32,000 nt of DNA, from assembly GCF_001306055.1 (NCBI RefSeq), contig NZ_LGHJ01000020.1:60001-92000 (forward strand). The letters run 5' to 3'. Under the pieces are notes generated by a model that did no database searches, had not been told where the DNA came from, and worked only from the letters and a program-made list of their open reading frames with translations. This DNA is from Bellilinea caldifistulae. Lineage in GTDB: Bacteria; Chloroflexota; Anaerolineae; Anaerolineales; Anaerolineaceae. The position numbers and the translations under genes were made by a program. Positions 1 to 31,271 of the stretch are shown here, in pieces. The first letter of the stretch is position 1. Each line of letters starts with the position of its first letter.

Positions 1-228
1 CAAACCTTTCGGCGGACGTTGCGGCGCGGTGATCAGGCTTTGCTGGATGGTCTGCTGGCATCTGCGCATCGTCATCTGGCTGCTATTTCGGCAAGCGGTG
101 CGTTGCTGCCTTTTGAAGCCGCCTTACTGGCCATGCTGCTCGAACAAGCCCGCCGGATTGCGGCGCTGGAGGAGGAAATCCGCATCTTTCAGGAGGAAGT
201 GGTGCGGCTGCGCGATGGCAAGGGTTGA
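1..228 (+). CDS. C-terminal end of an unidentified protein (open to the left window edge); Ala/Leu-rich helices followed by a charged coiled-coil-like tail
   Basis: Frame +1 is open from nt 1 (QTFRRT...) to TGA 226-228. The track ORF 19..228 starts at a TTG only because of the window edge. Its stop overlaps the polymerase ATG (215) by 14 nt, which suggests translational coupling. No family motif recognised. Confidence 0.4.
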   Translation, partial: QTFRRTLRRGDQALLDGLLASAHRHLAAISASGALLPFEAALLAMLLEQARRIAALEEEIRIFQEEVVRLRDGKG

Positions 229-2338
229 AAAGACCGGCTGGCTGATGGATGTGTACACCCGTCCGAGCGGTGAACTGGTCTGCTGGTTGTTGAGCGAGGA
301 CGGGCAGCGCTGGCTGCTGCCGATGGATTTTCCGGTTACTTTTTACGCGGCAGGCAGCTTGGCGGTGCTGCGGCAGGCCTGGCGCTTTTTGCGGGGGCGC
401 GGAGTACAACTTTCCCGGCAGGTGCGCCGTGATCTGTTTCACGGAGAGCGGGTTGTGTTGTCCGCAACCTTGGATTTGCCCGGACGTCTGCCTGAGACCT
501 ACCGCCGCCTGGCGCAGGCTTTTCCGGTATTGGATTACTACGATGCTGACCTGCCGCTCTCTGTGCGTTTTGTGGCTGGTACGCAAGTGCCGCTGCTGGG
601 ACGCTGCCGCTTTGAAACCGACGGCCAGCGTTTGTTGGGATTGCAGCCGCTTGAGTCGGCTTGGGAGATGCAGCCCTCGCTGCCGCCCCTGCGGGTGATG
701 GAAATCGAGTGTGACGCCGAGCCGGCGTTGCATCCCCCGCAGGAGATCGTCATTCGCTGCGACAGACGCTGCTATCGTTTTCCCTTGCAGCCCTTGCGTG
801 CCTTTGTGGTCAACCTGCAGGCACTGCTGGGGACTTACGATCCGGACGTAATTCTGACCCGTTATGGCGATACCTGGCTGTTCCCGTTCTTAAGCGAACA
901 TGCTCCGTCTTTCAACCCCAACCGCGACGAGCAGATGAAGGTTGAGTTTCGCCGCGAGCGCAGTTTGTTTGCTTATGGGCAGGTGCTTTACCGCGGGGCG
1001 CAAGCCCTGCTGTTTGGGCGCTGGCACATTGACCGTTGTAATGCCGCTTTGTTTGCCGAAATCGGGCTGACCGGTGCCCTGGAGATGGCACGGGTTACCG
1101 GTTTGGGGGTGCAGGAGGCGGTGCGCAAGTCACCGGGTGCAGGCATTACCGCCATGCAAATGCAGACTGCCCTGAGGGATGGAGTGCTGATCCCGGCGGT
1201 CAAACAGCAAGCGGAAGCTACCCGCACACTGGTTAGTCTGATTCGCTATGATCGGGGGGGGATGGTCTACCAGCCGCTGGTTGGTGTGCATCGTCATGTT
1301 GCCGAACTGGATTTTGCTTCAATGTACCCGGCGATCATGGTGCGTTATAACATCTCGCCGGAAACACTCTACCAGAGGGATGCGCCGGCCGGCTTAATTC
1401 CGCGCACGCTGCAACCCCTGCTGGTCAAGCGTCTGGCGCTCAAACATTGCCTGCATACCCTCGACCGGCGCGACAGCCGTGTAAGCGATTTGAAAGCCCG
1501 TCAGACGGCGCTCAAGTGGCTACTGGTGGTGTGTTTTGGATATCTGGGGTACAAAAATGCCCGGTTTGGGCGAGTGGAATCACACGAGGCGGTTACCGCC
1601 ATCAGCCGCGAGTTGCTGCTGCAGGCCAAGGAAAATGCTGAGGATATGGGATTCACCATCCTGCACATGTATGTGGACAGTTTGTTTGTAAAACGAGAGG
1701 ATACCCGGACTGAAGCGGATTTTCTGCCACTGGCAGAGAAAATTCAGGCAGAGACGGGTATTGGGGTGACCCTTGAAGGCGTATATCGCTGGCTGGTGTT
1801 TTTGCCGGCCTGCCGTGATCAACGCATTCCGGTGGCAAACCGTTATTTTGGGGTGTTTGAGGATGGTACGTTGAAGTATCGTGGCATTGCCCTGCGCCGT
1901 CATGATACCTGTCCGTATGTTGCCCAAACGCAGCTGGATATATTGAGTTGTCTGGCGCAGGCAGATGATCCGCGAGAGCAATGGAAAGAGGCATGGGGTC
2001 TGGTAAACCAGCGGGTGAGGTCATTGCAGCGCCGGCAAGCAGCCATCGAGGGGCTGCAAATGGCGGTCAAACTCAGCCGTGACCCGCAGGCTTTTCGGCG
2101 CCCTTCGGCGGCGGCACAGGCTGCCCGTCAGTTGCAGGCTGAGGGGGTGGCGGTGCGCGCCGGCATGCGGCTCTTCTTCTGGTTTACGCAACAGGGGGTG
2201 AGCGTTGCTCCACCCGCAGCCGAGGAGGTGGACTGGGATCACTATGCACGGTTGGTCTTGCGAGCAGCTGGCGAGATTCTGGATGTTCTCCAACCCGTAG
2301 AAAAGAAACAACAGTATTACCTGCCGCTCTTGAAATAG
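215..2338 (+). CDS. Family B DNA polymerase, archaeal-type layout, with degenerate 3'-5' exonuclease motifs
   Basis: Colinear with archaeal PolB. N-terminal MDVYTRPSGELV...; motif A ELDFASMYPAIMVRYNISPETL (about nt 1304-1369); motif B-like KWLLVVCFGYLGY (1514-); motif C-like HMYVDSLF (1664-); RGIALRRHD after an NRY (KxY-like) element. ATG 215 (MARVEK...) is preferred over the track start at 29, which lies in another gene's tail; ATG 245 (MDVY) is an alternative. Confidence 0.85.
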   Translation: MARVEKTGWLMDVYTRPSGELVCWLLSEDGQRWLLPMDFPVTFYAAGSLAVLRQAWRFLRGRGVQLSRQVRRDLFHGERVVLSATLDLPGRLPETYRRLAQAFPVLDYYDADLPLSVRFVAGTQVPLLGRCRFETDGQRLLGLQPLESAWEMQPSLPPLRVMEIECDAEPALHPPQEIVIRCDRRCYRFPLQPLRAFVVNLQALLGTYDPDVILTRYGDTWLFPFLSEHAPSFNPNRDEQMKVEFRRERSLFAYGQVLYRGAQALLFGRWHIDRCNAALFAEIGLTGALEMARVTGLGVQEAVRKSPGAGITAMQMQTALRDGVLIPAVKQQAEATRTLVSLIRYDRGGMVYQPLVGVHRHVAELDFASMYPAIMVRYNISPETLYQRDAPAGLIPRTLQPLLVKRLALKHCLHTLDRRDSRVSDLKARQTALKWLLVVCFGYLGYKNARFGRVESHEAVTAISRELLLQAKENAEDMGFTILHMYVDSLFVKREDTRTEADFLPLAEKIQAETGIGVTLEGVYRWLVFLPACRDQRIPVANRYFGVFEDGTLKYRGIALRRHDTCPYVAQTQLDILSCLAQADDPREQWKEAWGLVNQRVRSLQRRQAAIEGLQMAVKLSRDPQAFRRPSAAAQAARQLQAEGVAVRAGMRLFFWFTQQGVSVAPPAAEEVDWDHYARLVLRAAGEILDVLQPVEKKQQYYLPLLK

Positions 2339-4579: not shown

Positions 4580-5080
4580 TTAATCCCTTTCGAGAGGATT
4601 TCCGTTCAGTTTTGCAGTGACCGTAATGGGGGTGTTGTTTGTCAGGGCAACTTCGGTAAAACACATCTGACGGGCAAGGCGAACCAGTTCCCGGATGGTG
4701 GACAGCGGTTCATCGGATTCGATTTGGATCTCGACCTCAAACCCGTCACAAAATGCCATGGCATCGCCTCGTAAAACTGAGCCTTCTTCCCGAAAATGAG
4801 CGGTCACTTTGACTATTTCCTTACGAAGGTTCAATCTCTTTTTGGACGCAACCTGCGTCACATGGGAGATCAGTCAGAGTGCCATTCCGGATACAAAGTA
4901 GGTGAGAGGGGTTGGGGCAGTGCCTTCCCCACCGGGGATGTAGTTGCCTTCGTCGCTGATGAAGGCATACATACGACCGGTTTCCGGTTGTCCGGCAATG
5001 ACCTGTTTACGCCACTTTTCGATTGAGGTGGCAGTTGCTTCAACCACAATCTCGCGCCGGTGATTTTTTGGGTTTTCCAT
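4580..5080 (-). CDS. OsmC/Ohr-family peroxiredoxin-like protein with in-frame TGA (4874-4876) predicted to encode selenocysteine
   Basis: Track ORFs 4874..5080 and 4580..4861 are in the same frame, separated by one TGA. The joined product has the OsmC blocks ...GGEGTAPTPLTYFVSGMAL-U-LISHV... and ...LARQMCFTEVAL.... ATG 5080 is preceded by GAGGGA. A hairpin follows the TGA (next feature). Confidence 0.7.
4832..4873 (-). promoter_or_regulatory. Putative bacterial SECIS stem-loop directly downstream of the in-frame UGA
   Basis: RNA sequence is CUGAUCUC CCAUGU GACGCA GGU UGCGUC CAAAAA GAGAUUG. There is a 6-bp upper helix with a GGU apical loop, a possible unpaired U at +17, and a 5-7 bp lower helix (AUCUC/GAGAU plus two G-U pairs). 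Confidence 0.55.
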
Positions 5081-8961: not shown

Positions 8962-9450
8962 TCAGGCCTTTTCGGTCATCCGTTCGCGGATCAGTTGTTG
9001 GGCAATCAACGCTCCGTCGCGAATGGGTTCGTAGCCAGTGCAGCGGCACAGGTGTTTATTGAGGGCATTCGATAGTTCGGTTTCGCTGGCGTCCGGTTTG
9101 CTTTCCAGCAGGGCGTGGAGCTCCATCACAATACCGGGGGTGCAGAAACCGCACTGAACGGCTCCTGATTCGGCAATGGCTTTTTGGATCGGGTGCAATT
9201 CCATACCTTTTGCCAGCCCTTCGATGGTCAAAATATTCGCCCCCTGCATTTTGCTGGCCGGGGTATTACAGGATTTAACGGCTTTTCCATTCATGACAAT
9301 TACACATGTGCCGCAGGTAGCGTTATCGCAGCCGCGTTTTGTGCCGGTCAGATCCAGCACGTCGCGGATTACATCAATAACCATCATTTCTTCGTCAATT
9401 TCGACAGAGCGGTATTCGCCATTGATGGTGAAGGAAATTTTCTCGGTCAT
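8962..9450 (-). CDS. Molybdenum hydroxylase small subunit, [2Fe-2S]x2 (xanthine dehydrogenase / aldehyde oxidoreductase / CoxS family)
   Basis: CDNATCGTCV (plant-type cluster), QCGFCTPGIVM and LCRCTGYEPI (second cluster). ATG 9450 has AAGGAG 10 nt upstream and lies 1 nt after the large-subunit stop (9452-9454). Confidence 0.9.
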   Translation of the reverse strand: MTEKISFTINGEYRSVEIDEEMMVIDVIRDVLDLTGTKRGCDNATCGTCVIVMNGKAVKSCNTPASKMQGANILTIEGLAKGMELHPIQKAIAESGAVQCGFCTPGIVMELHALLESKPDASETELSNALNKHLCRCTGYEPIRDGALIAQQLIRERMTEKA

Positions 9451-9451
9451 T

Positions 9452-11785
9452 TCAGGCATACTCCTTTTCCGTTCGGGCTTCGAGGGCTTGTTTGATTTTT
9501 TCGGGCGTGACGGGAATTTCGTAGAAATCCACCCCGATGGCATCATAGATGGCGTTCAGGATGGCAGGTGGCACACCGATAACCGGATGTTCTCCGATGC
9601 CGCGAGCGCCAAAAGCCCCAATCGGGTCGGGTGTTTCGATGAATTCGATGGTTTGCTGGGGAGCTTCTTTATAGGTTGGAATGTGGTACTGGAAGTAATG
9701 TGGGTTAAGGATGCGGCCTTCTTCGTCGAACTTCACTTCTTCATACAAGGCTGCGCCCAACCCCATTAAGACTCCGCCTAACACGGTGCCGCGAATTTGA
9801 ATCGGGTTAATGACCTGTCCGACATCGAAGACGGATGCAAAGTGATCTACGTAGATTCTACCGGTTTTCTTCTCAATGCGGATTTCGGCAGCTTGAGCGC
9901 CAAAGGTATAAGTCACCCCCAGATTCCCCTGACCGTTTTGATCCGGGTTGGAATAACGTGGCAGGCGGGCATCGGCTACCGATTGAGCCAGATCGCCAAT
10001 GGTGATGCCATTGTCCGTGATGTAGCCGCGCGCTAATTGGGTTACCGGAACGCGAATGGAGGGGTCGCTGCGCAGGTAGACGTACTCACCGTCGTATTCA
10101 AGATAATCTTCATCGGTGCGAAGTACCTGAGCAGCTGTTTTCTTCAAGCCTTGAATCAGTTTCTCGGCGGCGCGAACGATGGCGCGTCCCCCTTGCATGG
10201 TGAACATGGAACCGATGGTTTGCCATTCGTAGGGGGAGAACTGGGTGTCAATTTCGTTGTAGCAGCGCACTTTTTCGGGTGGTATCTTGAGGGCTTCGGC
10301 GGCAATCTGACGAACGACGGTGCGCAAGCCCTGGCCCACTTCGGCGCCGCCCATATTGACCGACACGCTGCCGTCAATGTTCATCTTCATGTAGCAGCCC
10401 TTGGTGGAGAAGGGCGCGCCTTTGGGTGATTTCATCAATGCAGCAAAACCCCGACCATAATAAAATTGATCATCTTCTTGCTTCTCTTTGGGCTTTCCAA
10501 AGACAATTTGTTGAACCCGCTCGGCACATGCCTGCATGTCACCGTTTGATTTCCACATCCGCTCACCGAGCGAATTGGTGCTGCCTTCGCGCAGATAATT
10601 CTTGCGGCGTAATTCAAATGGATCCATATTCAGCTTGCGTGCCAGCATGTCCATCATCCGCTCGGTGGCAAACTGCGGTTCGGGATGCCCATAACCACGG
10701 AATGCGCCAACCGGCGGCGTGTTGGTATAGACGGTGTAGCCGGTTAGATCGCAATGTTCAAATTCATACGGGCCGGTGGAGTTGTGGGTTGCGGCGATGG
10801 TCACATTGACGGCAGTGTCGGAGTATGCTCCGCCCGAATGATATACGGTGGTTTTAAGGGCCACCAGTTTGCCATCGCGCTTTGCCCCGATTTTCATGAC
10901 CGTGCGAATGCCGTGAGCAAGTAATGTGCTGGTGATGTCTTCCTTGCGGCTGGCAACCCACTTGACAGGCCGCCCGGGGACGAAACTGGCGATCCAGGCA
11001 ATGGTCTGCTCGACGGTGATATCCGATTTGTAGCCAAAGCAGCCGCCAATATCGGGAATGTGAACGCGAACATCCGAGACGGGCACACCGTAGGAATGGG
11101 CAATGTCATCGCGGATGATGAAGGGGCAAATCGAGGATGACCAGATTTCGATGGTGCGGTCTTCCTTGAACCAGACAATTGAACCGTGCGGTTCGAGTGC
11201 GGCGCAGGAACCAAACGGATAATTGAACTCGCCCTCGATGATGACGTCGGCTTCCTCGAAACCTTCCTCGCCGCGGCCTTTTTTCAGATGATAGACGTTG
11301 GCGATGTTGGTGCCGGGCTTTGGGTTGAGGGTCGGAAGATGCCAGTATTCGCCCAATTCTTCGTGTATGAGAACGGCATCCTCGCTCATTGCCTGGCGGG
11401 CATCAATGTAAACCGGCAGAGGGTCGTATTCCACTTTAATCTTGTCCAACGCCGCGTAGGCGTGGCGGGGCGTATCGGCGATGACGGCAGCAACCGGTTC
11501 TCCAATGTGCCGGACTTTGTCAATCGCCATGGGTACCAGGTCGCGGATGTTATCTCCGTAGCGGTAGGTGCAGCCCTTGCCGGTGACGACTTTGACCACA
11601 CCGGGACATTTTTCGGCTTCACTGGTATCAATGGAGAGGATGCGGGCATGGGCGTATTTGGGCCGCAGGATGGCGGCGTGTAACATGCCCGGCAGACGGA
11701 TGTCATCCAAAAAGACGGCTTTACCGGTAACTTTATTGATGGCATCCGGTCTGATGTAACTTTTACCTAAATACTTGTAAGCCAT
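9452..11785 (-). CDS. Molybdopterin-binding large subunit of a xanthine dehydrogenase / aldehyde oxidase family hydroxylase
   Basis: 777 aa. It has an a/b-hammerhead-type N-terminus (AVFLDDIRLPGMLHAAILRPKYAHARI) and GAFRGYGHPEPQFATERMMD, and is colinear with the family throughout. ATG 11785 is preceded by AAAGGAG with a 6-nt spacer; the track start 11791 is a TTG. Confidence 0.9.
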   Translation of the reverse strand: MAYKYLGKSYIRPDAINKVTGKAVFLDDIRLPGMLHAAILRPKYAHARILSIDTSEAEKCPGVVKVVTGKGCTYRYGDNIRDLVPMAIDKVRHIGEPVAAVIADTPRHAYAALDKIKVEYDPLPVYIDARQAMSEDAVLIHEELGEYWHLPTLNPKPGTNIANVYHLKKGRGEEGFEEADVIIEGEFNYPFGSCAALEPHGSIVWFKEDRTIEIWSSSICPFIIRDDIAHSYGVPVSDVRVHIPDIGGCFGYKSDITVEQTIAWIASFVPGRPVKWVASRKEDITSTLLAHGIRTVMKIGAKRDGKLVALKTTVYHSGGAYSDTAVNVTIAATHNSTGPYEFEHCDLTGYTVYTNTPPVGAFRGYGHPEPQFATERMMDMLARKLNMDPFELRRKNYLREGSTNSLGERMWKSNGDMQACAERVQQIVFGKPKEKQEDDQFYYGRGFAALMKSPKGAPFSTKGCYMKMNIDGSVSVNMGGAEVGQGLRTVVRQIAAEALKIPPEKVRCYNEIDTQFSPYEWQTIGSMFTMQGGRAIVRAAEKLIQGLKKTAAQVLRTDEDYLEYDGEYVYLRSDPSIRVPVTQLARGYITDNGITIGDLAQSVADARLPRYSNPDQNGQGNLGVTYTFGAQAAEIRIEKKTGRIYVDHFASVFDVGQVINPIQIRGTVLGGVLMGLGAALYEEVKFDEEGRILNPHYFQYHIPTYKEAPQQTIEFIETPDPIGAFGARGIGEHPVIGVPPAILNAIYDAIGVDFYEIPVTPEKIKQALEARTEKEYA

Positions 11786-11815
11786 TTTCAACTCCTTTCT
11801 TGAATTACTTGTGTA

Positions 11816-12736
11816 CTATTCTCTGCGGTAGGGTTTCAACAAGGCTGCCGGGTAAGAAGCGTTCCGCCCGGCAATGACCAGGGCAATGATCGTAACCACA
11901 TACGGCAGAGCCAAAAAGGTTTCATAAGGCACGGGCAACTGCAAACCCATTGCCTGTAAGCGCAATTGCAAAGCAAAGGTGCCGCCAAAGATCAAACCGC
12001 CCAGCATCACGCGAACAGGGTGCCAGTTGCCGAAGATCACGATGGCAATGGCAACCCAACCGCGCCCGGAGATGATCCCGTGAGTGAAGGCGCCCAATTG
12101 GAAAAGTGAGAGAAATGCACCCCCAGCCGCCATCAGACCGCCGCCGATTGCCAGGGCAGCATAACGCACTGCCGGTACACTGATTCCGGCGGCATCCACC
12201 GCCTCCGGATTTTCGCCAACCGAGCGGATTTTCAAACCAAAATTGGTGCGGTACAGAATCCACCATGCCAGCGGCACAATGACCAGAAAGGTGAGGTAGG
12301 TCAACCAGTATTGGGAAAGGATCGGCCCGAGGATGGGGTTGTTTTGCAAAATATTGAGCGTTTGGAAGGAAGGGATGGAAGGGGGAGTAGAACGGCCGCC
12401 ATAGAAAAGACGGAAGGTGAAAAGCGTTAAGCCGGTATGCAAGAGGGTGATACCCAGACCGGAAACGTGCTGGTTGACCCCAAGGGTGACGGTGAAGAAA
12501 CCCATCAACAAACCAAACACGATTCCCGATAAGATGGCCATTAATAAACCCAGCCAGAGTGAACCGCTTTTATCGGCGATTAGAAAGCCTACAAAGGCGC
12601 CAAAATACATAATGCCTTCAATGCCGAGGTTCAGAATACCGGCACGTTCGCTATAAGTTTCTCCAATGGCAGCCAGGACAATTGGGGTTGAAACACGGAA
12701 GGTGGCTGCGATTAAGTTGACCAGGAATACTTCCAT
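11816..12736 (-). CDS. ABC transporter permease (BMP / nucleoside-type, second permease)
   Basis: Polytopic hydrophobic protein. Its ATG overlaps the stop of the upstream permease (TAATG at 12734-12738). It sits in an operon with a duplicated ATPase and a BMP-family binding protein. Confidence 0.85.
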   Translation of the reverse strand: MEVFLVNLIAATFRVSTPIVLAAIGETYSERAGILNLGIEGIMYFGAFVGFLIADKSGSLWLGLLMAILSGIVFGLLMGFFTVTLGVNQHVSGLGITLLHTGLTLFTFRLFYGGRSTPPSIPSFQTLNILQNNPILGPILSQYWLTYLTFLVIVPLAWWILYRTNFGLKIRSVGENPEAVDAAGISVPAVRYAALAIGGGLMAAGGAFLSLFQLGAFTHGIISGRGWVAIAIVIFGNWHPVRVMLGGLIFGGTFALQLRLQAMGLQLPVPYETFLALPYVVTIIALVIAGRNASYPAALLKPYRRE

Positions 12737-13806
12737 TATGCCCTCCGAACGATGCGGTAACGTTGAAGCAGGTACATTCCCAGGGCAACCAGTAACATGA
12801 CTGCCTGAGTGACCTCGCCCAGGTAAACCGGTACGCCCATTGCCCGGCTAACCGTTTGAGCGCCGGTATCAATCAACCCAAAGAATAGAGAGGCAACGAA
12901 CACACCTATGGCATTCAGGCTGCCGAGCGTGGCAATGATCACCCCGGTGTAGCCATAACCGGCGGAAAGATCGCCGATCAAGTGGAATTGAATACCAGCT
13001 ACTTCGCTTACCCCGGCAATGCCGGCAATACCGCCGCTGATTAATGCGGCAATCAGTGTGGTGCGTCCAACGTTGATGCCTGCAAATTGTGCGGCAGGTT
13101 TTCCCAGTCCAACGGCGCGCATTTTCAGACCAAAGGAGGTCTGGGTCAGGATAAACCATAAAACTGCAATCCCTACCAGGGCTACAATGAACCCAAAGTG
13201 CAGGCGCGAACGGGGAATCAGCTTGAAAAACATGGTATTCTCAGCAATTTCGGGGGATTGCGGCCAACCAGAGGTTGGGTCGCGCCAGGGGCCGTTTAGA
13301 ATGGCGCTGACAATATAGGCCATGATGGAATTCATCAAAAGGGTGGTGACTACCTCATCCACGGCCAGCCGGACTTTGAGCAGCGCAGGAATCAGCGCCC
13401 AGGCCATACCTGCCAAAAATCCGCCAATTATCATCAAAGGGATGGCAATGGCGGCCGGTACCCCTGCCAGAACAATGCCAAGCCATGCAGCCGCAATCGC
13501 CCCGGCGTACAGCTGGCCTTCGGCGCCGATGTTGTAATAACCGGTGGCAAAAGCAAATGTGACGGCTACGCCGGTCAGCATCAAAGGAGTGGACTTGACC
13601 AGCACCTCCAGGAAAGATACCTGACTGGAGAGAGGGGAGATCAGGAAATAATAGTAAGCCTGAAAGGGATTTGCCCGAGTGGAGAGAATCAACCCCGCAG
13701 TAATAAGGAATGTGATCAAAAGAATCAGCACCGGAATGAGCGGGCGCATCCAAATAGGGGGTGTGTCGGTTTTGACCAGTTGATAAGGGAACCGTTTGGC
13801 TTCCAT
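12736..13806 (-). CDS. ABC transporter permease (BMP / nucleoside-type, first permease)
   Basis: Polytopic hydrophobic protein. ATG 13806 (MEAKRF...) with AAGGAG 10 nt upstream is preferred over the GTG at 13830. Confidence 0.8.
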   Translation of the reverse strand: MEAKRFPYQLVKTDTPPIWMRPLIPVLILLITFLITAGLILSTRANPFQAYYYFLISPLSSQVSFLEVLVKSTPLMLTGVAVTFAFATGYYNIGAEGQLYAGAIAAAWLGIVLAGVPAAIAIPLMIIGGFLAGMAWALIPALLKVRLAVDEVVTTLLMNSIMAYIVSAILNGPWRDPTSGWPQSPEIAENTMFFKLIPRSRLHFGFIVALVGIAVLWFILTQTSFGLKMRAVGLGKPAAQFAGINVGRTTLIAALISGGIAGIAGVSEVAGIQFHLIGDLSAGYGYTGVIIATLGSLNAIGVFVASLFFGLIDTGAQTVSRAMGVPVYLGEVTQAVMLLVALGMYLLQRYRIVRRA

Positions 13807-13810
13807 GGAA

Positions 13811-15313
13811 TCAATGCTCCTTGACGGCACCCGACATCAGCAGCCCGAGTCGTTCGGGTGTGGCTTCTGCGGCGGGTAAAGTACCAACAATTTCGCCCTC
13901 GTAAATGACGGCAATCCGATCCGAGAGCGCCAGAATTTCATCCAGGTCTTCTGAGATCAGCAGAATGGCGGCGCCACGCTGGCGCTGTTCCAGCAATTGC
14001 TGGCGAACATAATCCGTTGCGCCAATATCCAAACCACGGGTCGGTTGAGGAGCAATGATCACTTTGGGCTGCCGGGCCAGTACGCGTGCCAGCAGCACCT
14101 TTTGCATGTTCCCGCCGGAAAGGGTGCGGGTAATATCATTTGGTTTGGCTTTGATCTGAAATTTCTGGATTAACTCACTGGCATATTGACGGATGGCTTT
14201 ATGGTCTAAAACACCATTGCGGGTGAATTCATCCAGATGTTCCAGAACGAGATTGTCGGTAACGCTCAGGTGAACGACCATTCCCTCATGGCGGTCTTCG
14301 GGTATACGTCCGAGTCCGGATTGGGTGAGTTCGGAGGGTGATTTGCCAGTGACATCCCGGCCATCAACGCGGATGCTCCCGGCGGTTGGTTGACGGACAC
14401 CGCAAATCGTTTCAGCCAGTTCCTTCTGCCCGTTTCCTCCAACGCCGGCAATACCTAAAATTTCGCCCTCAAAAACGGTGAGCGAGATGTTCTTAAGGAC
14501 GGGTAAGTTTTTATCGTCGTTGGCGCACAGGTTGATCAGTTCGAGCATGGGTTTTTGTGCAGCCGTTTCGGAAGTTGCTTTGCTGCGCGTTACGCCGAAA
14601 GTTTCTCTTCCGACCATCATCGCAGCCAGTTCTTTTTGGGTGACATCGGCGGTATTGACCGTACCAACGACTTTACCGTCTCGCAGGACGGTGACTCGAT
14701 CGGTGATTTGGGTTACTTCATGTAATTTGTGGCTGATAAAGATGACCGATAAACCTTCCTGTTTGAGACGATTCAACGTTTCAAACAGCGCCTCTACTTC
14801 CTGGGGAATCAGCACTGCGGTTGGTTCGTCAAGAATGAGAATTTCAGCATTGCGGTAAAGGGCTTTAAGAATTTCGACCCGCTGGCGCTGTCCAACCGAC
14901 AGATGCCGGACGATTGCTTTGGGATTGATTTCTAATCCAAACCGACGGGCGGCTTCGGTAACGCTCTCTTCTATTTGATTCTGATCAAGAACGAACGAGT
15001 TTTGATAACCCAGCACAACATTTTCTGCAACCGTCAGCGGCGGCACAAGAGCAAAATGCTGGGTCACCATTCCAATTCCGAGATGGATGGCATCTTTGGG
15101 TGAGTGGATGACGACAGGCTGTTCCTTGACTTTGATGACACCCGAATCGGGATGGTACAACCCATAGAGGATGCGCATCAATGTGGTTTTTCCTGCCCCG
15201 TTTTCACCCAGCAGAGCGTGAACTTCTCCTTTTTGCAATTCAAAATTCACGTGGTCATTGGCGATGAGATCGCCAAAGCGCTTGGTGATGGATTGCATTT
15301 CGACGATAAACAT
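13811..15313 (-). CDS. ABC transporter ATP-binding protein with two fused ATPase domains
   Basis: Domain 1 has GENGAGKTT, LSVGQRQRVEI and ILILDEPT. Domain 2 has GVGGNGQKE and LSGGNMQKVLL. ATG 15313 (MFIVEMQSITKRFG) is preceded by GGAGAGG. Confidence 0.9.
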   Translation of the reverse strand: MFIVEMQSITKRFGDLIANDHVNFELQKGEVHALLGENGAGKTTLMRILYGLYHPDSGVIKVKEQPVVIHSPKDAIHLGIGMVTQHFALVPPLTVAENVVLGYQNSFVLDQNQIEESVTEAARRFGLEINPKAIVRHLSVGQRQRVEILKALYRNAEILILDEPTAVLIPQEVEALFETLNRLKQEGLSVIFISHKLHEVTQITDRVTVLRDGKVVGTVNTADVTQKELAAMMVGRETFGVTRSKATSETAAQKPMLELINLCANDDKNLPVLKNISLTVFEGEILGIAGVGGNGQKELAETICGVRQPTAGSIRVDGRDVTGKSPSELTQSGLGRIPEDRHEGMVVHLSVTDNLVLEHLDEFTRNGVLDHKAIRQYASELIQKFQIKAKPNDITRTLSGGNMQKVLLARVLARQPKVIIAPQPTRGLDIGATDYVRQQLLEQRQRGAAILLISEDLDEILALSDRIAVIYEGEIVGTLPAAEATPERLGLLMSGAVKEH

Positions 15314-15439
15314 GACCTCTCCTGAGGGGCTTAGGTGGGATAACCCGTAGCGGCGCTTGTTTATCAAACAGGATGGTTTTGATCGCTTCTACGGGTGGAC
15401 TGGTATTCCTGACTTGTTTCAACCATTATGGGTGTTGAG

Positions 15440-15473
15440 GTGCCTGTGCGGCTTGCTTTGGCCGCACAGGCAC
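15440..15473 (-). other. Intercistronic 13-bp stem-loop between the binding-protein and ATPase genes
   Basis: gtgcctgtgcggc (15440-15452) pairs with gccgcacaggcac (15461-15473). No U-tract follows on the minus strand, so it looks like an mRNA-stabilising or processing hairpin rather than a full terminator. Confidence 0.5.
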
Positions 15474-15486
15474 ACTCCAGTTTCAC

Positions 15487-16506
15487 CTAGTTGGTAGGTG
15501 CCGGGGGTTCTTCCTTGATGTCAACGCGGAAGAGACCATTGCGGATTTCTTCATCGCGTTGCTTGACCAGCGAAAGGATGTTCTCCGGAATCTTGGATTC
15601 CATGCCGTGGAATGGAGCAAGGTACGCACCACCTTTGGCAACCATGCTGAAGTCCTTGAGATCCTGAGCGGTGAAGGTGCCGGCTTCAATCTGCTTGATC
15701 ACGTATTCAACCGTGGGGGTCATGTTCCAGACTGGCCCGGTCAGGACGTGATCCGGTCCGAGTTCGTACTGGTCGCTCATGTTCCCAAAAGCCAGCAGAC
15801 CTTTTTCAACCGCCGCATCAATCACGCCGAAGCGTTCGGCAAACAGCACATCGGCACCGGCATCCACCTGAGCCAGAGCAGCCTCTTTGGCAGCGGCGGG
15901 ATCAAACCACGAGTTGATGAAGGTAACCAGCACTTTGGCATCCGGGTTGACCTCTTTGACGCCGTCAATGAACGCGTTGACAATGCGGTTGACTTCGGGA
16001 ACGGGATAGCCACCAACCACACCGATCACATTCGTCTTGGTTACACCACCGGCGATCATGCCGCACAGGTAAGCCGGTTCGTGAATCCAGTTATCGAATA
16101 CCGCCACATTGGGTTCCGCCGGGCCGAGGCCGGAACCAAAGACAAAAGCAATTTCCGGGTAATCCTTGGCTACCCGACGGACGGCTTCTTCATTGCCAAA
16201 AGCATCGCCAAAGATGGCGGCTGGTTTTTGTTTTTCGGCTACTTCGCGAAGAACGCGTTCCATATCGCCGGCGTAACCGATATCATCAGTATACTCGTAG
16301 CGGATTTTGCCTTCATCCGCAACTTTTTGGAGCGCCTGATGAATTACACCATCCCAGGGTTCTTCGATGGGGGTGGCAAAGGCGCCGAAGAATAACGGCG
16401 CTTGAGTCTCACCGGTTTGGGGCGCCTGGGTCTGTGCAGCCGGAGCGCATTGTGCGGTAAGCACCACCAGCAAAACAGCGATCAAGACAGTCTTAAAGGT
16501 TTTCAT
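15487..16506 (-). CDS. BMP-family (PnrA/Med-like) ABC substrate-binding protein, secreted
   Basis: Signal peptide MKTFKTVLIAVLLVVLTAQC. BMP-type blocks GVVGGYPVPEVNRIVNAFIDGVKEVNPDAKV...INSWFDPAAAKEAALAQVDAGADVLFAE. Confidence 0.9.
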   Translation of the reverse strand: MKTFKTVLIAVLLVVLTAQCAPAAQTQAPQTGETQAPLFFGAFATPIEEPWDGVIHQALQKVADEGKIRYEYTDDIGYAGDMERVLREVAEKQKPAAIFGDAFGNEEAVRRVAKDYPEIAFVFGSGLGPAEPNVAVFDNWIHEPAYLCGMIAGGVTKTNVIGVVGGYPVPEVNRIVNAFIDGVKEVNPDAKVLVTFINSWFDPAAAKEAALAQVDAGADVLFAERFGVIDAAVEKGLLAFGNMSDQYELGPDHVLTGPVWNMTPTVEYVIKQIEAGTFTAQDLKDFSMVAKGGAYLAPFHGMESKIPENILSLVKQRDEEIRNGLFRVDIKEEPPAPTN

Positions 16507-18426: not shown

Positions 18427-19422
18427 TCAGGGAAAAGGGAAGGGCGTTACAGTTCCACGCTGGATGGGTGTAAGTAGATTGGCGGCAAATTCACTGATTT
18501 CCAGACGAGTCGGATTGTCGGCTTCTTCCAGTCCAAGACTGTTGAGCGTCATCCGGATTTGACTGCCGTCTGCACTGCTCTGGTTCCATTCAAAGGGTTG
18601 AAGGCGGATAAACCAGCGCAGGATCTTGCTCAGTTGTTCGGGGGTTAACCGCATGATACCGGGATTCTGACTGGCCTGCCCTCGGCAATAATACTGGACA
18701 CTCCACCCGTTCAGGTAGACTTTTAAACCATCACAGTATTCCTGAAATGAACCTTCGCGGCTCCAGTTTAGAGCGGGAATACTGGTGAGATAGCCATCTA
18801 CACTAGCCAATACCGGATTTGATTCCAATTTAGAAATTCGGAACTCGAAAATGTGGTTCTCAATCCCCAATCGAATAATCCGGCCTTCGACCGGCAATTG
18901 AGTGCAGGGAATTTCGGCAATGGCAATTTCCAGACAACCATCTAAAAATGTGGTTTGGCGCTCACTGAGTATTTGAATTGCCTGCGGGTCATAACCTAAA
19001 AGTCCGGCCAGGTATTGTACGGCTTGCAAGGCCGAAATGGAAGGTTGATCAACCGAACGGATGGGGCGTACCATCATTCCATCCAAGTCAGTGTGATAGG
19101 TGTATGATTTGTCTGAGTAACGCAGGGTGACAATCAGGCCGGGAATCTTTTGTTCCGGACAAATTTCGCCCGGGTCACCCGCTTCCAGGCAGGAATTTTG
19201 CCAGGTTACCGATTCGATGGCTTGAATGGTGATTTGCTGGGGGGAGATATTCAACTCGCGGGCGAGTTCACGTCTGGCCTGTAAGGCTCCCCCGGGGGGT
19301 TGGATAAAACCACCATCCTGTGGGGGCAGCGTGGCAGTTTGCCCGACCGGCTGGTCGGTTTTATTACATGCCGCCAAAAGGAGCAGCAGAAAAATGGTGA
19401 TGAGAGAAAACCTTCGAAACAT
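18427..19422 (-). CDS. Hypothetical lipoprotein
   Basis: MFRRFSLITIFLLLLLAAC is a lipoprotein-type signal with a lipobox Cys. No catalytic motif recognised. ATG 19422 was chosen for the signal peptide; no clear SD, so the track start 19506 remains possible. Confidence 0.55.
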   Translation of the reverse strand: MFRRFSLITIFLLLLLAACNKTDQPVGQTATLPPQDGGFIQPPGGALQARRELARELNISPQQITIQAIESVTWQNSCLEAGDPGEICPEQKIPGLIVTLRYSDKSYTYHTDLDGMMVRPIRSVDQPSISALQAVQYLAGLLGYDPQAIQILSERQTTFLDGCLEIAIAEIPCTQLPVEGRIIRLGIENHIFEFRISKLESNPVLASVDGYLTSIPALNWSREGSFQEYCDGLKVYLNGWSVQYYCRGQASQNPGIMRLTPEQLSKILRWFIRLQPFEWNQSSADGSQIRMTLNSLGLEEADNPTRLEISEFAANLLTPIQRGTVTPFPFP

Positions 19423-19531
19423 CCAATAGGATTGTAATAGAAATCTGCCTCTTTGGGGTAAATCGTTCCGAGAATGATTTGCGCAATTACCCAAAATCAG
19501 ATACATTGTTTAAAAAATTTGAGAGGAAATC

Positions 19532-21785: not shown

Positions 21786-22946
21786 TCAGGGTTGAATTGA
21801 CTCAACCAATAATTCTTCCAGATAATCACCCTGCAAAACGCGGTCTTTCCATCCCGGCATGAGATGATCAAGCAAAACCCCTTGCCCAAACCCAGAATAA
21901 TAAAAAAGAATTTCACCATCCATGTTCGTTTTGGACATGGTACTTAACTGAGTTTTAAAGAATTGGGCGCGCGAGGAGTAATTTTTCAAACCTAATTTTT
22001 GGGTCGAATCGGGCAGGGGCAAAAACTCATTTTGCGCAGCAATTTTACCAATTTGTAACTCCGCATATTTTGCCACCCCCTCCAACCATTCGCGTTTGCG
22101 TTCATAATCCATCAGGGCGTCACTTAACTGAGCAGATTGCCGTCGTTCATTTCTAACTTTTAGAAATTGCTCGGCAACCAAAATTGCCTCTTCACGAGTA
22201 GAAACTTCTCCCGCCTGCTGGAGTACTTTCAATTCATTCTTCCAGTTTTTCATTAAGTTTTCATTCTCAAAAGGGTATTGCTTTTCCCAATTGGCAATTA
22301 ATTCAGCGTTTTCGAACATGACTGGATTTTGTCTGGCCTGAAATACATGAAAAGCCTCATGAGCCAATGAACTGATATAGGCTTCCGGGGCGAGCATTAA
22401 ATCGCGAAAGAATATGCGGTAAGGGAAGATTTCCCGCAAGACCGGAGGGAGTTCAGTGTACATCAGATCGTGAAAATAAATCAAAGCAAATTCCTGAGTC
22501 TGGAACGACGCAGCAATTTGATCATCTATTTTAACGACAAAGTTTTCGGGTGTTTTTTGCGGATCCTCGATCCAAGTGCGGAAGACAGTGTTACCCGACG
22601 CATTGACCGGCTGCCATTCCCCGCCGCGTTGATGCGTGCGTGGATACATGGTCCAGCCCTCAGAAAGTGGCGTATCAATTCCTACGGCAAAAGCGGCCGT
22701 TTCATTGTAAAACACCCATGGAATTCGTTCAACTGACCAACCGGGAAAGACCTGATTGCCAACACCGGAGAGAAGATGATTGGCTTCCTGGGTCAGAAGC
22801 ATTTGATTTTCTGAAAGAAGCTCTGGATTTTCAGATCTTTTTGGAAGGGATTGATTGATGATGAGTAGGGTCAAAGAACTGAACAAGCACAAACCTGCCA
22901 TTGTAAAGAAGATGCCCAGTAAAAGAGATTTTCGTTTCTTAAACAT
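21786..22946 (-). CDS. Membrane-anchored putative MA-clan zinc metallopeptidase
   Basis: N-terminal anchor LLLGIFFTMAGLCLFSSLTLLI. HEAFH (HExxH) followed by WLEGVAKYAE (EGxAxY third-ligand-type block). The gene is markedly AT-rich. Confidence 0.55.
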   Translation of the reverse strand: MFKKRKSLLLGIFFTMAGLCLFSSLTLLIINQSLPKRSENPELLSENQMLLTQEANHLLSGVGNQVFPGWSVERIPWVFYNETAAFAVGIDTPLSEGWTMYPRTHQRGGEWQPVNASGNTVFRTWIEDPQKTPENFVVKIDDQIAASFQTQEFALIYFHDLMYTELPPVLREIFPYRIFFRDLMLAPEAYISSLAHEAFHVFQARQNPVMFENAELIANWEKQYPFENENLMKNWKNELKVLQQAGEVSTREEAILVAEQFLKVRNERRQSAQLSDALMDYERKREWLEGVAKYAELQIGKIAAQNEFLPLPDSTQKLGLKNYSSRAQFFKTQLSTMSKTNMDGEILFYYSGFGQGVLLDHLMPGWKDRVLQGDYLEELLVESIQP

Positions 22947-29000: not shown

Positions 29001-30167
29001 TTAATCACGGGTGTACACTATTCTGCCTTCCACCATCGTAAAGAGGATATTTCCATCCTCATCCATCAGAAACAGGTCAGCGTCTTTACCGGGTTCCAGA
29101 CTGCCTTTCTGGTGGGCAATCCCGATTGTGCGGGCTGGATAAAGAGAAGCGCTCAAAATCGCCTCTTCCAGCGGTGCGCCGGTTGCATTGACAAAGTTGT
29201 GGAGGGCTTTCTCAAGCGTCAAGCCGCTGCCTGCCAGTGTGCCATCCAATAAAGCGACCTTGCCTTGTTTAACCTGCACCGGACGATTGTCCAGAATATA
29301 CTGACCATCCGGCAGGCCGGTTACACGGGTGCTGTCGGAAATCAGCACAATCCCTTCACAGCTGCGCAGTTGATAAAGGATGCGCTGGGCAACGGGGTGG
29401 ACGTGGATGTTATCAGCAATCAGCTCGCAGCGCAGTTCGGGCATGGTCAGACCGGCACCCACGACGCCGGGTTCACGATGATGAAGCGGGCTCATGGCAT
29501 TAAAGCAATGGGTCAGCAGTCTTACTCCCCGCTCAACAGCAACTTGCATTTGCTCGTAGGTTGCGCTGGTATGACCGGCGGCGACGGTAATGCCCCGCGA
29601 AACGCAGGCGTCAATCAACCAGAAGTTTTCGGGGAATTCCGGTGCCAGTGAAACTACCTTAACCATTTCGTGCTGGATGAGAGAAAGGGCTTCTTCATGG
29701 TCGGTTGCCTGACGGATGAATTGAATGGCTTGCGCACCGGCGCGATTGGGATTCATGTAAGGGCCTTCCAGGTAGGCGCCTAATAAGGCTGCGCCATTGC
29801 GGATGCGCCCATAGGCATTCCCAATCGCATCCAAAGCCTTGAGCAAGGCGGCCTGGGGGGCTGCCCAGGTTGCAGCCAGGAAAGAGGTCACTCCATGTTG
29901 AACCAGAAATTGAGCAATCTCTTCAATGGCGTGCAGGTCAGCGTCCATGAATTCAAAGCCCATTGCGCCATGAATATGTAAATCCATCAGACCGGGAAGC
30001 AGGTGATTTTGACCGGCATCCAGTTTCTCCTGGGCTTTTTGCATCTCGGTTGCCGGTGGTTGACCGTGCCCCAAACGAGAAATCGTACGATTTTCAACTA
30101 CAATCCAGCCGGGGGATAAGATTTCATTCGGCGTATAAATTCGGGCATTCCAAATTAATGTTCCCAT
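29001..30167 (-). CDS. nagA: N-acetylglucosamine-6-phosphate deacetylase
   Basis: LLPGLMDLHIHGAMGFEFMD, AAGHTSATYEQ and THCFNAMSPLHHREPGVVGA blocks. ATG 30167 (MGTLIWNARIY) with GAGGAA upstream is preferred over the track start 30341. Confidence 0.85.
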   Translation of the reverse strand: MGTLIWNARIYTPNEILSPGWIVVENRTISRLGHGQPPATEMQKAQEKLDAGQNHLLPGLMDLHIHGAMGFEFMDADLHAIEEIAQFLVQHGVTSFLAATWAAPQAALLKALDAIGNAYGRIRNGAALLGAYLEGPYMNPNRAGAQAIQFIRQATDHEEALSLIQHEMVKVVSLAPEFPENFWLIDACVSRGITVAAGHTSATYEQMQVAVERGVRLLTHCFNAMSPLHHREPGVVGAGLTMPELRCELIADNIHVHPVAQRILYQLRSCEGIVLISDSTRVTGLPDGQYILDNRPVQVKQGKVALLDGTLAGSGLTLEKALHNFVNATGAPLEEAILSASLYPARTIGIAHQKGSLEPGKDADLFLMDEDGNILFTMVEGRIVYTRD

Positions 30168-30308
30168 ATAATTGTTCCTCACCGCTTTGGTTAAGTTGAT
30201 TGTAATCCGAAAACGAAAAGGTTTGTATTTTGGGGAGGGCGGAATTGGAAAACGGACCCATATGCTGAGCGGGTTTTCAAGCGCCGATAAGCGGTGTACA
30301 ATTTTGTT

Positions 30309-31271
30309 ATGGACGTTGCCCTGCTTTCTTCCCGCCAACATATCCGTCCGCTACGCAGCCGAAAAGATATTCTGGCAGTGGCCGATTTAATTGAGATTTG
30401 CTTTGCCGATCATATGGATGTGGATGGGAGAGAGTACATTCGTTATCTGCGGCGCTTCGCTGTACCGGATGAAGGTCTGGCCGGTAAACTTTTGGAGCCG
30501 TTTCAAGTACCGGTGCGAGGATTGGTCTGGGAGGAAGATGGTCAAATTGTCGGCAACCTGAGCCTGATCTCGTTCAACAGGCAAGGGAAACGCTACACTC
30601 TGATTGCCAATGTAGCCACTCACCCGGCTTATCGTCGGCGTGGAATTGCCCGCCACCTGACCGAAACCGCTTTGCAGCAAATTCGCGAGCGGGGAGAAAA
30701 TGAAGCCTGGTTGCATGTCCGCGAGGATAACCCGGCAGCCATTCAATTGTACCGGTCCCTGGGTTTTGAGGAACGATGCCGGCGCACCAGCTGGATGTGG
30801 GAACCGCACTCCGGATTTCTGCCAAAAGTCAACCATGAAAAAATTCGGATTGTATCTCGCCAGCCCGGCGATTGGCCGCATCAAAACCGCTGGTTGGATG
30901 AAGTCTATCCGGCAGAAATAACCTGGAACCTTCCGTTGGATAAAAACCGCCTGAAACCCAATTTCTGGAAGGACTTGTGGAACTGGTTGAATGGTGGCGA
31001 AGCCTTGCACCTTTCGGCACGTTGGATTGATCATTTGGTGGGCGTGGCTTCCTGGCAGCCGACTTCGGCTTACGCGGATATGATCTGGTTGGCTGCCGCA
31101 GCCGAACACGAAGATGAAGTCATTCCGGTCTTGTTGTCAGCAGCCGGCAGGCGGCTGCATAATGGAAGACCTCTGGCGGTTAACTATCCTGCGCAACGGG
31201 CAACGGAGGGTTTCCGCCGGGCCGGCTTTCAAGCGCATGTTACCTTGATCTGGATGCGTATCCAACTTTGA
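30309..31271 (+). CDS. GNAT-family N-acetyltransferase with an extra C-terminal GNAT-like domain
   Basis: N-terminal domain has the acetyl-CoA motif YRRRGIARHLTETAL...LHVREDNPAAIQLYRSLGFEE. C-terminal half ends ...ATEGFRRAGFQAHV. ATG 30309 is preferred over the GTG at 30294; the start is uncertain. Confidence 0.7.
   Translation: MDVALLSSRQHIRPLRSRKDILAVADLIEICFADHMDVDGREYIRYLRRFAVPDEGLAGKLLEPFQVPVRGLVWEEDGQIVGNLSLISFNRQGKRYTLIANVATHPAYRRRGIARHLTETALQQIRERGENEAWLHVREDNPAAIQLYRSLGFEERCRRTSWMWEPHSGFLPKVNHEKIRIVSRQPGDWPHQNRWLDEVYPAEITWNLPLDKNRLKPNFWKDLWNWLNGGEALHLSARWIDHLVGVASWQPTSAYADMIWLAAAAEHEDEVIPVLLSAAGRRLHNGRPLAVNYPAQRATEGFRRAGFQAHVTLIWMRIQL

What the first reader, a model, noticed from the sequence alone, without database searches (positions are those of the whole stretch)
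4832..4873. Hairpin after the UGA mimics the E. coli fdhF SECIS geometry (unpaired U17, GGU apical loop)
On the minus-strand RNA, numbering the U of UGA as +1, the sequence is UGA CUGAUCUC CCAUGU GACGCA GGU UGCGUC CAAAAA GAGAUUG. The upper helix is G18-C32, A19-U31, C20-G30, G21-C29, C22-G28, A23-U27, capped by G24 G25 U26. G16-C33 can stack below it and leave U17 unpaired. The lower helix is A7-U43, U8-A42, C9-G41, U10-A40, C11-G39, plus G6-U44 and U5-G45. In the fdhF SECIS the SelB determinants are a bulged U17 and loop bases G23/U24 at almost the same distance from the UGA. Such a structure exactly here inside a coding region is unlikely to be coincidental and independently supports recoding.
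Basis: partly seen in the sequence, partly recalled or inferred. Interest (0 to 1): 0.7.

Follow-up and report, generated by a model that had tools for sequence, protein, structure and literature searches.

The report
Selenocysteine insertion hairpin in OsmC gene
The hairpin is real and is almost certainly the RNA signal that makes the ribosome read the in-frame UGA of an OsmC-type peroxidase gene as selenocysteine; this is an ordinary bacterial mechanism in an already catalogued selenoprotein family.

Summary
The minus-strand gene at 5080..4580 encodes a 166-codon OsmC-related protein. Its codon 69 is UGA (4876..4874), at the position of the invariant peroxidatic Cys of homologues. The protein passes NCBIfam NF041052, "OsmC-related (seleno)protein".

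In 73 UGA-containing orthologues from Anaerolineae, the core C20-G21-C22 / A-GGU-N / G28-C29-G30 is present every time. The two pairs below it (18-32, 19-31) covary repeatedly. Three codons are locked to rare synonymous choices.

Of 17 Cys-containing homologues, 15 lack the intact hairpin, including some that encode the same local peptide. The two that keep it are sisters of UGA forms, which fits recent Sec-to-Cys reversion.

All tested criteria of the published bacterial SECIS model are met. The GGU loop lies 2 nt further from the UGA than in E. coli fdhF.

The window comes from Bellilinea caldifistulae GOMI-1. I could not check its Sec machinery.

Verdict: a genuine bacterial SECIS and a new member of a known kind. 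General interest is low.

The parts
4580..5080 (-). OsmC-related selenoprotein gene: 166 codons including the in-frame UGA at codon 69. ORF finders split it into 5080..4874 and 4861..4580.
   Evidence: Translation. Pfam OsmC PF02566, E = 7.5e-13. NCBIfam NF041052 'OsmC-related (seleno)protein', 127.3 bits against a cutoff of 95. Full-length Cys homologues align across the UGA.
4874..4876 (-). UGA read as selenocysteine. It sits at the position of the invariant Cys (GMAL-C/U-LISH), which aligns with the first conserved Cys of Ohr/OsmC structures.
   Evidence: alignments to PDB 3cje and 3eer. 72 of 81 species-level genome copies (the window plus 80 loci) carry TGA here and 9 carry TGC/TGT. TGA is an ordinary stop in 7 of 21 long ORFs of the window.
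4845..4859 (-). Conserved SECIS core (+18..+32). The 5-bp stem is G18-C32, A19-U31, C20-G30, G21-C29, C22-G28. The loop is A23-GGU-U27, where A23-U27 can close a sixth pair.
   Evidence: MFE. RNAalifold consensus over 72 sequences is exactly this stem. Pairs 20-30, 21-29 and 22-28 are invariant. Pair 18-32 is GC 58 / UA 9 / AU 4, and pair 19-31 is UA 41 / UG 26 / AU 5. Pair 18-32 needs at least 11 state changes on the tree, with 1 mismatch in 73.
4851..4853 (-). Apical GGU (+24..+26), the presumed SelB contact. It is invariant in all UGA-containing orthologues.
   Evidence: Invariant columns G33, G34, T35 of alignment A3. It fits the published bSECIS loop pattern N1-G-[G|U]-N-N2 (PMC13188914).
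4844..4861 (-). Extended upper hairpin of this genome: G16-C33 stacked under the core, with U17 (4860) bulged. This feature varies between lineages.
   Evidence: Present in the window's MFE. G16-C33 is a standard pair in 44 of 72 orthologues. The U17 bulge appears in 35 of 70 MFEs.
4866..4872 (-). 5' arm of the lower helix (+5..+11). It forms in this genome but is not conserved.
   Evidence: MFE. Helix 1: 67.7% of cells paired; pair 7-43 is unpaired in 54 of 72, pair 9-41 in 39 of 72, pair 11-39 in 33 of 72.
4832..4838 (-). 3' arm of the lower helix (+39..+45). Not conserved.
   Evidence: Same as the 5' arm.

Best explanation
The hairpin is a bacterial selenocysteine insertion sequence (SECIS) inside the coding region of an OsmC-related peroxidase gene of Bellilinea caldifistulae.

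Proposed mechanism, by analogy with the E. coli and Moorella systems. When the ribosome reaches UGA codon 69, the stem-loop 12 to 30 nt downstream sits at the mRNA entrance. SelB carrying Sec-tRNA(Sec) binds the GGU loop on top of the G-C-rich stem and delivers selenocysteine instead of allowing termination. The result is a 166-residue enzyme with Sec at the peroxidatic Cys position.

Shown here:
- the fold;
- its conservation and covariation in all UGA-containing orthologues;
- its absence or decay in Cys-containing orthologues;
- synonymous-codon locking;
- the fit to the published bSECIS model;
- membership of the protein in a curated (seleno)protein family.

Inferred, not shown: SelB binding, actual Sec insertion, and the presence of selA/selB/selC/selD in this genome.

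The functional unit is the 5-6 bp stem plus the A-GGU-N loop. The lower helix and the bulged U17 of this particular sequence are probably dispensable extras.
For: 1. The MFE equals the proposed structure.

2. Of 80 species-representative Anaerolineae loci plus the window, 72 carry TGA at the Cys position. One further TGA copy came from a metagenome contig. All 73 carry CGCAGGUNGCG at the same offset.

3. Covariation. Pair 18-32 switches among G-C, U-A and A-U with at least 11 changes on an NJ tree and one mismatch in 73. Pair 19-31 switches among U-A, U-G and A-U. The wobble base of codon 6 after the UGA tracks the middle base of codon 11, and so the amino acid there: NNG with Thr/Ala/Ser, NNU with Lys/Asn, NNA with Ile.

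4. Synonymous locking. Ala is GCG in 73 of 73, against 27% elsewhere in the same genes. Ser/Thr is NCG in 73 of 73, against 23%. Val is GUU in 64 of 73, against 20%.

5. Cys homologues. Hairpin MFE is -2.7 against -7.9 kcal/mol (p = 1.6e-8). L088 encodes the same ISQVAKK peptide with AGC CAG GTG GCC and has no hairpin. The nested Cys forms show a decay series: L089 and L081 intact, L090 half lost, and the ITQVAN clade lost.

6. The bSECIS model criteria quoted in PMC13188914 are all met. The loop is 3 or 5 nt, and G occupies the first two positions of the 3-nt GGU loop. The stem is 5-7 bp, the spacing from UGA to loop is 20 nt, and MFE is at or below -7.5.

7. NCBIfam NF041052 'OsmC-related (seleno)protein' scores above its cutoff. 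OsmC-like selenoproteins with predicted SECIS have been reported since 2005 (PMC1088965).

8. TGA is a normal stop elsewhere in the window.

9. SelB and Sec-containing formate dehydrogenases are reported in Anaerolineales (PMC4959059).
Against: No Sec machinery gene or tRNA-Sec lies in the 32-kb window or in the first 60 related loci (L001-L060). I could not reach the rest of the genome.

There is no experimental evidence of Sec insertion.

On the single sequence the fold is only marginally better than shuffles.

No Rfam family matches. That carries little weight if, as I recall, Rfam has no bacterial SECIS model.

Two Cys-containing homologues keep the hairpin. I read these as recent reversions, from a rough NJ tree only.
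Confidence: 0.9

Rival explanations
1. The hairpin is a by-product of protein-coding constraint on the peptide H-V-[S/T]-Q-V-A and has no RNA-level role.
For: The peptide SQVA/TQVA is conserved in both Sec and Cys forms. U at +17 is invariant simply because it is the second base of a hydrophobic codon. Two Cys forms carry the hairpin.
Against: Cys forms encode the same peptide with other codons and no hairpin: ACC CAG GTG GCC, or AGC CAG GTG GCC in L088. Synonymous sites are fixed only in UGA forms. Base pairs covary across an amino-acid-changing position.
Confidence: 0.03
2. The UGA is a genuine stop. The gene is either a pseudogene or split into two ORFs, and the hairpin acts as a terminator, a pause site or a re-initiation signal.
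For: ORF finders and public annotation call two pieces. There are many 91-97-residue 'OsmC family protein' entries and N-terminal fragments ending at GMAL.
Against: The UGA and the downstream frame are kept in 73 diverged genomes, at the catalytic Cys position. Neither half is a complete OsmC fold. No U-run follows the stem, which is followed by CCAAAAAG, and no terminator is called there.
Confidence: 0.02
3. The hairpin stimulates SelB-independent read-through of UGA, for example by near-cognate Trp or Cys tRNA, rather than Sec insertion.
For: Sec machinery was not verified for this genome. Structures downstream of stop codons can promote read-through in other systems (general knowledge).
Against: The loop matches the SelB-type consensus, a GGU on a short G-C stem about 20 nt after the UGA. 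The UGA replaces a redox-active Cys, the classic Sec/Cys pattern. The protein family is curated as a (seleno)protein. Anaerolineales encode SelB.
Confidence: 0.04

Closest known systems
Bacterial SECIS consensus model (bSECISearch model of Zhang and Gladyshev, as summarised in PMC13188914)
   Same: A stem-loop lies inside the ORF immediately after the Sec-UGA. The loop is 3 or 5 nt and follows the pattern N1-G-[G|U]-N-N2, here A-GGU-U. The upper stem is 5-7 bp, the spacing from UGA to loop is 20 nt, and MFE is at or below -7.5 kcal/mol.
   Different: Nothing essential differs. In this lineage the core is unusually rigid: three invariant G-C pairs and an invariant GGU across 73 genomes.
E. coli fdhF SECIS (sequence verified in 5,419 of 5,426 E. 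coli genomes)
   Same: Both share the hexamer GCAGGU running into the loop, a C after the UGA, a bulged U at +17 in this particular sequence, and a two-helix hairpin of similar energy (-14.9 against -14.4 kcal/mol).
   Different: The fdhF loop is GGUC at +22..25 with 4 bp between bulge and loop. Here the loop is GGU at +24..26 with 6 bp between them. The bulge is absent in about half of the orthologues and the lower helix is not conserved. In E. coli, U17 and G23 are both required for SelB binding (PMC8659212). That requirement probably does not hold here.
OsmC-like selenoprotein family (Sargasso Sea, Zhang et al. 2005, PMC1088965; NCBIfam NF041052 'OsmC-related (seleno)protein')
   Same: It has the OsmC fold, Sec replaces the first redox Cys, and a SECIS is predicted just downstream. 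The window protein scores 127 bits against the NF041052 cutoff of 95.
   Different: The published motif is UxxT, while this clade has UL[I/L]S, that is UxxS. I did not test whether the marine sequences and the Anaerolineae clade are the same subfamily.

Membership tests
Bacterial SECIS (bSECIS consensus model) | An in-frame UGA aligned with Cys in homologues, with the reading frame conserved downstream | tested here: met
   72 TGA and 9 Cys among 81 genome copies (the window plus 80 loci); the frame is conserved in all.
Bacterial SECIS (bSECIS consensus model) | Apical loop of 3-9 nt on an upper stem of 4-16 bp | tested here: met
   The loop is GGU (63 of 70 MFEs) or AGGUN (7 of 70). The uninterrupted stem is 5-9 bp. 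In the window it is 6 bp, plus 2 more after the bulge.
Bacterial SECIS (bSECIS consensus model) | G in one of the first two loop positions, with pattern N1-G-[G|U]-N-N2 where N1 and N2 pair | tested here: met
   The window has A23-G24-G25-U26-U27. GGU is invariant in the 72 aligned sequences, and A23-U27 is a pair in 63 of 72.
Bacterial SECIS (bSECIS consensus model) | 16-37 nt between the UGA and the apical loop | tested here: met
   20 nt in 63 sequences and 19 nt in 7.
Bacterial SECIS (bSECIS consensus model) | MFE at or below -7.5 kcal/mol | tested here: met
   -8.5 for the hairpin alone and -14.4 for the whole element in the window. 70 of 73 orthologues pass over +1..+45.
Bacterial SECIS (bSECIS consensus model) | The structure is kept by compensatory change in Sec forms and is not required in Cys forms | tested here: met
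Bacterial SECIS (bSECIS consensus model) | SelB binds the element and Sec is inserted at the UGA | not testable with these tools
   This needs a binding assay, 75Se labelling or mass spectrometry.
Bacterial SECIS (bSECIS consensus model) | The same genome encodes selA, selB, selD and tRNA-Sec | not testable with these tools
   None is in the window or in the first 60 related loci. The rest of scaffold DF967971.1 could not be fetched. SelB is reported in other Anaerolineales (PMC4959059).
E. coli fdhF-type SECIS (SelB determinants U17, G23, U24) | A bulged U on the 5' side of the upper stem | tested here: inconclusive
   It is present in the window's MFE but in only 35 of 70 orthologue MFEs. 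U at +17 is fixed by the codon, not by the RNA.
E. coli fdhF-type SECIS (SelB determinants U17, G23, U24) | Loop G and U at +23/+24, four base pairs above the bulge, in a 17-nt minimal element 11 nt from the UGA | tested here: not met
   Here G25/U26 (or G24) lie six base pairs above the bulge, and the element G16..C33 starts 12 nt after the UGA.
E. coli fdhF-type SECIS (SelB determinants U17, G23, U24) | A lower helix pairing the region next to the UGA | tested here: not met
   It forms in the window but is not conserved: 67.7% of cells pair and 3 of 7 pairs are unpaired in 33 to 54 of 72 sequences. It is also absent from the RNAalifold consensus.
OsmC-related (seleno)protein, NCBIfam NF041052 | Score above the curated cutoff | tested here: met
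   127.3 bits against 95.
OsmC/Ohr peroxidase fold | Two conserved redox Cys positions, with Sec at the first | tested here: met
   U69 aligns with the Cys of 'GLTGC' in 3cje and 'GYAAC' in 3eer. C140 aligns with the Cys of 'QVCPYS' in 3eer. C69 and C140 are invariant in alignment A2.
Any Rfam family | A covariance-model match | tested here: not met
   There is no match at gathering scores, and nothing relevant at E up to 10.

The most novel reading that the evidence does not exclude
The UGA might be decoded without SelB. If Bellilinea caldifistulae lacks the Sec machinery, the invariant CGC-AGGUN-GCG hairpin would be a dedicated read-through stimulator, inserting Cys or Trp at the catalytic position. 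A milder version: the Anaerolineae SelB reads a lineage-specific code (three fixed G-C pairs plus AGGUN, with no bulged U), which forces the protein residue 11 positions after Sec to co-evolve with a wobble base.
Probability: 0.04. Interest if true: 0.7.

Novelty: new member of a known kind. Interest (0 to 1): 0.22.

Why it matters
It corrects the annotation of a split gene. In public records the gene appears as 91-97-residue 'OsmC family protein' fragments in many Anaerolineae genomes.

It shows that a cultured anaerobe, Bellilinea caldifistulae GOMI-1, probably makes a Sec-containing OsmC-type peroxidase, so the prediction can be tested in culture.

The 73-genome comparison is also a clean textbook case. 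An RNA signal inside a coding region fixes synonymous codons and couples an amino-acid choice to a wobble base. After Sec-to-Cys reversion the signal decays.

It does not change what is known about how bacterial SECIS elements work.

Tried and rejected
- Rfam found no SECIS-type match, either at gathering scores on the whole window or at E up to 10 on 4700-5000.
- The first attempt to scan genomes, with the mixed alignment A1, failed because no block was conserved enough. It worked with the full-length alignment A2.
- I looked for Sec machinery in three places. ARAGORN on the window found only tRNA-Gly. Pfam on 20 long ORFs of the window found no SelA, SelB or SelD. ARAGORN on 60 related loci found no tRNA-Sec.
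One look-up with the gene at 29001-30341 was not on record, and P0028 had no DNA available.
- A second CGCAGGTAGCG, at 9312-9322 (+) with a TGA 15 nt upstream, looked at first like a second SECIS. I rejected it. That frame is full of stops, and the motif is the antisense of the CDNATCGTC iron-sulfur motif of the minus-strand 2Fe-2S gene.
- The terminator reading was rejected: no U-run follows the stem and the scan called nothing there.
- Genome-wide reassignment of TGA was rejected: 7 of 21 long ORFs end in TGA.
- Literature searches found no paper on selenoproteins of Bellilinea. They gave only phylum- and order-level statements.

Full report
**What is in the sequence.** The minus strand between 5080 and 4580 reads as one frame of 166 codons, interrupted only by TGA at 4876..4874. 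ORF listing splits it into 5080..4874 and 4861..4580. With Cys in place of the stop, the protein matches Pfam OsmC (PF02566, E = 7.5e-13). It also matches NCBIfam NF041052, 'OsmC-related (seleno)protein', at 127.3 bits against a curated cutoff of 95.

Alignments to solved OsmC-like and Ohr structures place the UGA at the first conserved redox Cys. The later Cys140 falls at the second one.

**Checking the observation.**
- an upper helix, 18-23 with 27-32, capped by GGU;
- G16-C33 (and U15-A34) beneath it, with U17 bulged;
- a lower helix, 6-11 with 39-44.

Its energy is -14.4 kcal/mol. On this one sequence that is only modestly better than chance: z = -1.85, with 10 of 200 shuffles as good. The upper hairpin alone gives -8.5 kcal/mol, z = -2.6, 2 of 200 shuffles.

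**Comparative evidence.**

A protein search returned three kinds of hit:
- about 50 full-length homologues with Cys at the position;
- 59 short pieces, mostly C-terminal fragments of about 92 residues starting just after the stop;
- five N-terminal fragments ending at GMAL.

Four more proteins were called with Trp at the site, that is, TGA read under another genetic code. This is the usual signature of a mis-annotated selenoprotein.

A scan of one genome per species returned 80 Anaerolineae loci. Together with the window, 72 copies carry TGA and 9 carry TGC or TGT. Contig look-ups added one further TGA copy and eight distinct Cys copies. That gave 73 Sec and 17 Cys sequences for comparison.

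*Conservation and covariation.*
- All UGA-containing copies carry CGCAGGUNGCG at the same offset.
- RNAalifold's consensus over 72 sequences is precisely the 5-bp stem 18-22 with 28-32.
- Pairs 20-30, 21-29 and 22-28 never vary.
- Pair 18-32 is G-C in 58, U-A in 9 and A-U in 4. Pair 19-31 is U-A in 41, U-G in 26 and A-U in 5.
- On a rough NJ tree built from the protein outside the hairpin, pair 18-32 needs at least 11 state changes, with a single mismatch among 73 sequences.
- These switches link the wobble base of the sixth codon after the UGA to the middle base of the eleventh. The amino acid there (Thr/Ala/Ser, Lys/Asn or Ile) therefore tracks an otherwise silent base.

*Synonymous sites.* They are locked in the Sec forms only:
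- Ala is GCG in 73 of 73, against 27% elsewhere in the same genes.
- Ser/Thr is NCG in 73 of 73, against 23%.
- Val is GUU in 64 of 73, against 20%.

**The Cys control.** Fifteen of the 17 Cys-containing copies lack the intact hairpin. Mean MFE of +14..+37 is -2.7 against -7.9 kcal/mol (Mann-Whitney p = 1.6e-8).

The peptide does not force the structure. The Cys clade encodes ITQVA as ATC ACC CAG GTG GCC. L088 encodes ISQVAKK with AGC CAG GTG GCC and has no stem.

Two Cys copies, L089 and L081, retain an intact hairpin. L090 retains a half-decayed one. In the tree these are sisters of UGA forms or nested among them, as is the larger hairpin-less Cys clade. I read this as at least three Sec-to-Cys reversions, each followed by relaxation of the RNA constraint. 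That reading rests on a distance tree only.

**What is and is not part of the element.**
- The lower helix is not conserved. It has 67.7% of cells paired in A/U-rich sequence, three of its seven pairs are unpaired in 33 to 54 of 72 sequences, and it is absent from the consensus fold.
- G16-C33 is a standard pair in 44 of 72. The U17 bulge appears in 35 of 70 MFE structures.
- U at +17 is invariant only because it is the middle base of a Val/Leu/Ile/Met codon, and Cys forms share it.

The conserved functional unit is therefore the short G-C-rich stem and the A-GGU-N loop.

**Comparison with the known.** The bacterial SECIS model quoted in a 2026 review (PMC13188914) has four requirements. All are met.

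| Requirement | Found here |
|---|---|
| Loop of 3-9 nt | 3 nt (GGU) or 5 nt (AGGUN) |
| Stem of 4-16 bp | 5-9 bp uninterrupted |
| G in the first two loop positions, pattern N1-G-[G/U]-N-N2 | A-GGU-U |
| 16-37 nt from UGA to loop | 20 nt (19 in seven sequences) |
| MFE at or below -7.5 kcal/mol | -8.5 (hairpin alone), -14.4 (whole element) |

A structural paper describes a 6-8 bp stem with a conserved G about 20 nt after the UGA (PMC4605307).

I recalled the fdhF SECIS from memory, and it proved identical in 5,413 E. coli records. It shares the hexamer GCAGGU with this element. Its loop, however, is GGUC at +22..25, four pairs above the bulged U17. Here the loop is at +24..26, six pairs above the bulge. 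In E. coli, U17 and G23 are both needed for SelB binding (PMC8659212). Given the variable bulge here, the Anaerolineae SelB probably does not need it. So the element works like fdhF's but is not an fdhF-type copy.

OsmC-like selenoproteins with predicted SECIS elements were first reported from the Sargasso Sea in 2005, with motif UxxT (PMC1088965). This clade has UxxS.

**Source and context.** A gene of the window lies on NCBI scaffold DF967971.1 of GCA_001050215.2, which is 3,698,317 bp long. That equals the single-scaffold genome size published for Bellilinea caldifistulae GOMI-1 (PMC4574363).

The neighbours of the gene are an acyl-CoA synthetase-like gene and a chemotaxis receptor gene. 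No Sec machinery lies in the window or in the first 60 related loci. TGA is an ordinary stop in 7 of 21 long ORFs. SelB and Sec-containing formate dehydrogenases have been reported in Anaerolineales (PMC4959059).

**Rivals.**
- A coding by-product is excluded by the codon and Cys-control data.
- A true stop, pseudogene or terminator is excluded by conservation of the frame in 73 genomes and by the lack of a U-run after the stem.
- SelB-independent read-through remains formally open until the machinery is found in this genome. I give it about 4%.

**Verdict.** This is a genuine bacterial SECIS in an already curated selenoprotein family. It is a new member of a known kind, and its interest is mainly for annotation and as a clear example of RNA structure constraining a coding sequence.

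Noticed in passing
window 9294-9322 (+): There is a second CGCAGGTAGCG with a TGA 15 nt upstream, almost the same geometry as the OsmC SECIS. The 11-mer is expected 0.07 times by chance in the window. It is the antisense of the CDNATCGTC iron-sulfur motif of the minus-strand 2Fe-2S gene (8962-9546), and the plus-strand frame is full of stops. I judge it a coincidence.
   Followed up: yes
L081 (709), L089, L090; proteins P0001, P0033, P0034: These Cys-containing OsmC genes sit inside the Sec clade and still carry an intact (L081, L089) or half-decayed (L090) SECIS hairpin. They look like relics of recent Sec-to-Cys reversion. L081 comes from a low-coverage contig (2.7x), so a sequencing error TGA>TGC is not excluded there.
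   Followed up: partly
proteins P0019, P0031, P0042, P0043; locus L087 (1179): Four database proteins have Trp at the Sec position. The DNA of L087 shows TGA, so gene callers read these Anaerolineae contigs with a genetic code in which TGA is a sense codon.
   Followed up: partly
proteins P0055-P0120 (for example P0055, 'OsmC family protein [Bellilinea sp.]', 93 aa): Public annotations split this selenoprotein gene. There are dozens of C-terminal fragments of 91-97 residues, and N-terminal fragments ending at GMAL, across Anaerolineae MAGs.
   Followed up: partly
window 8962-16506 (-): This is a cluster of a xanthine-dehydrogenase-family molybdenum hydroxylase (2Fe-2S subunit and MoCo-binding subunit) next to a Bmp/PnrA-type ABC transporter and amidohydrolases, probably for purine or nucleoside catabolism. 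Some enzymes of this family use a selenium cofactor. I did not examine that here.
   Followed up: no
window 29-2338 (+): A family-B DNA polymerase gene (Pfam DNA_pol_B, E = 1e-25) lies at the edge of the window.
   Followed up: no
window 18427-19506 (-) and 21786-22946 (-): Two ORFs of 359 and 386 residues have no Pfam match at E <= 1e-5.
   Followed up: no
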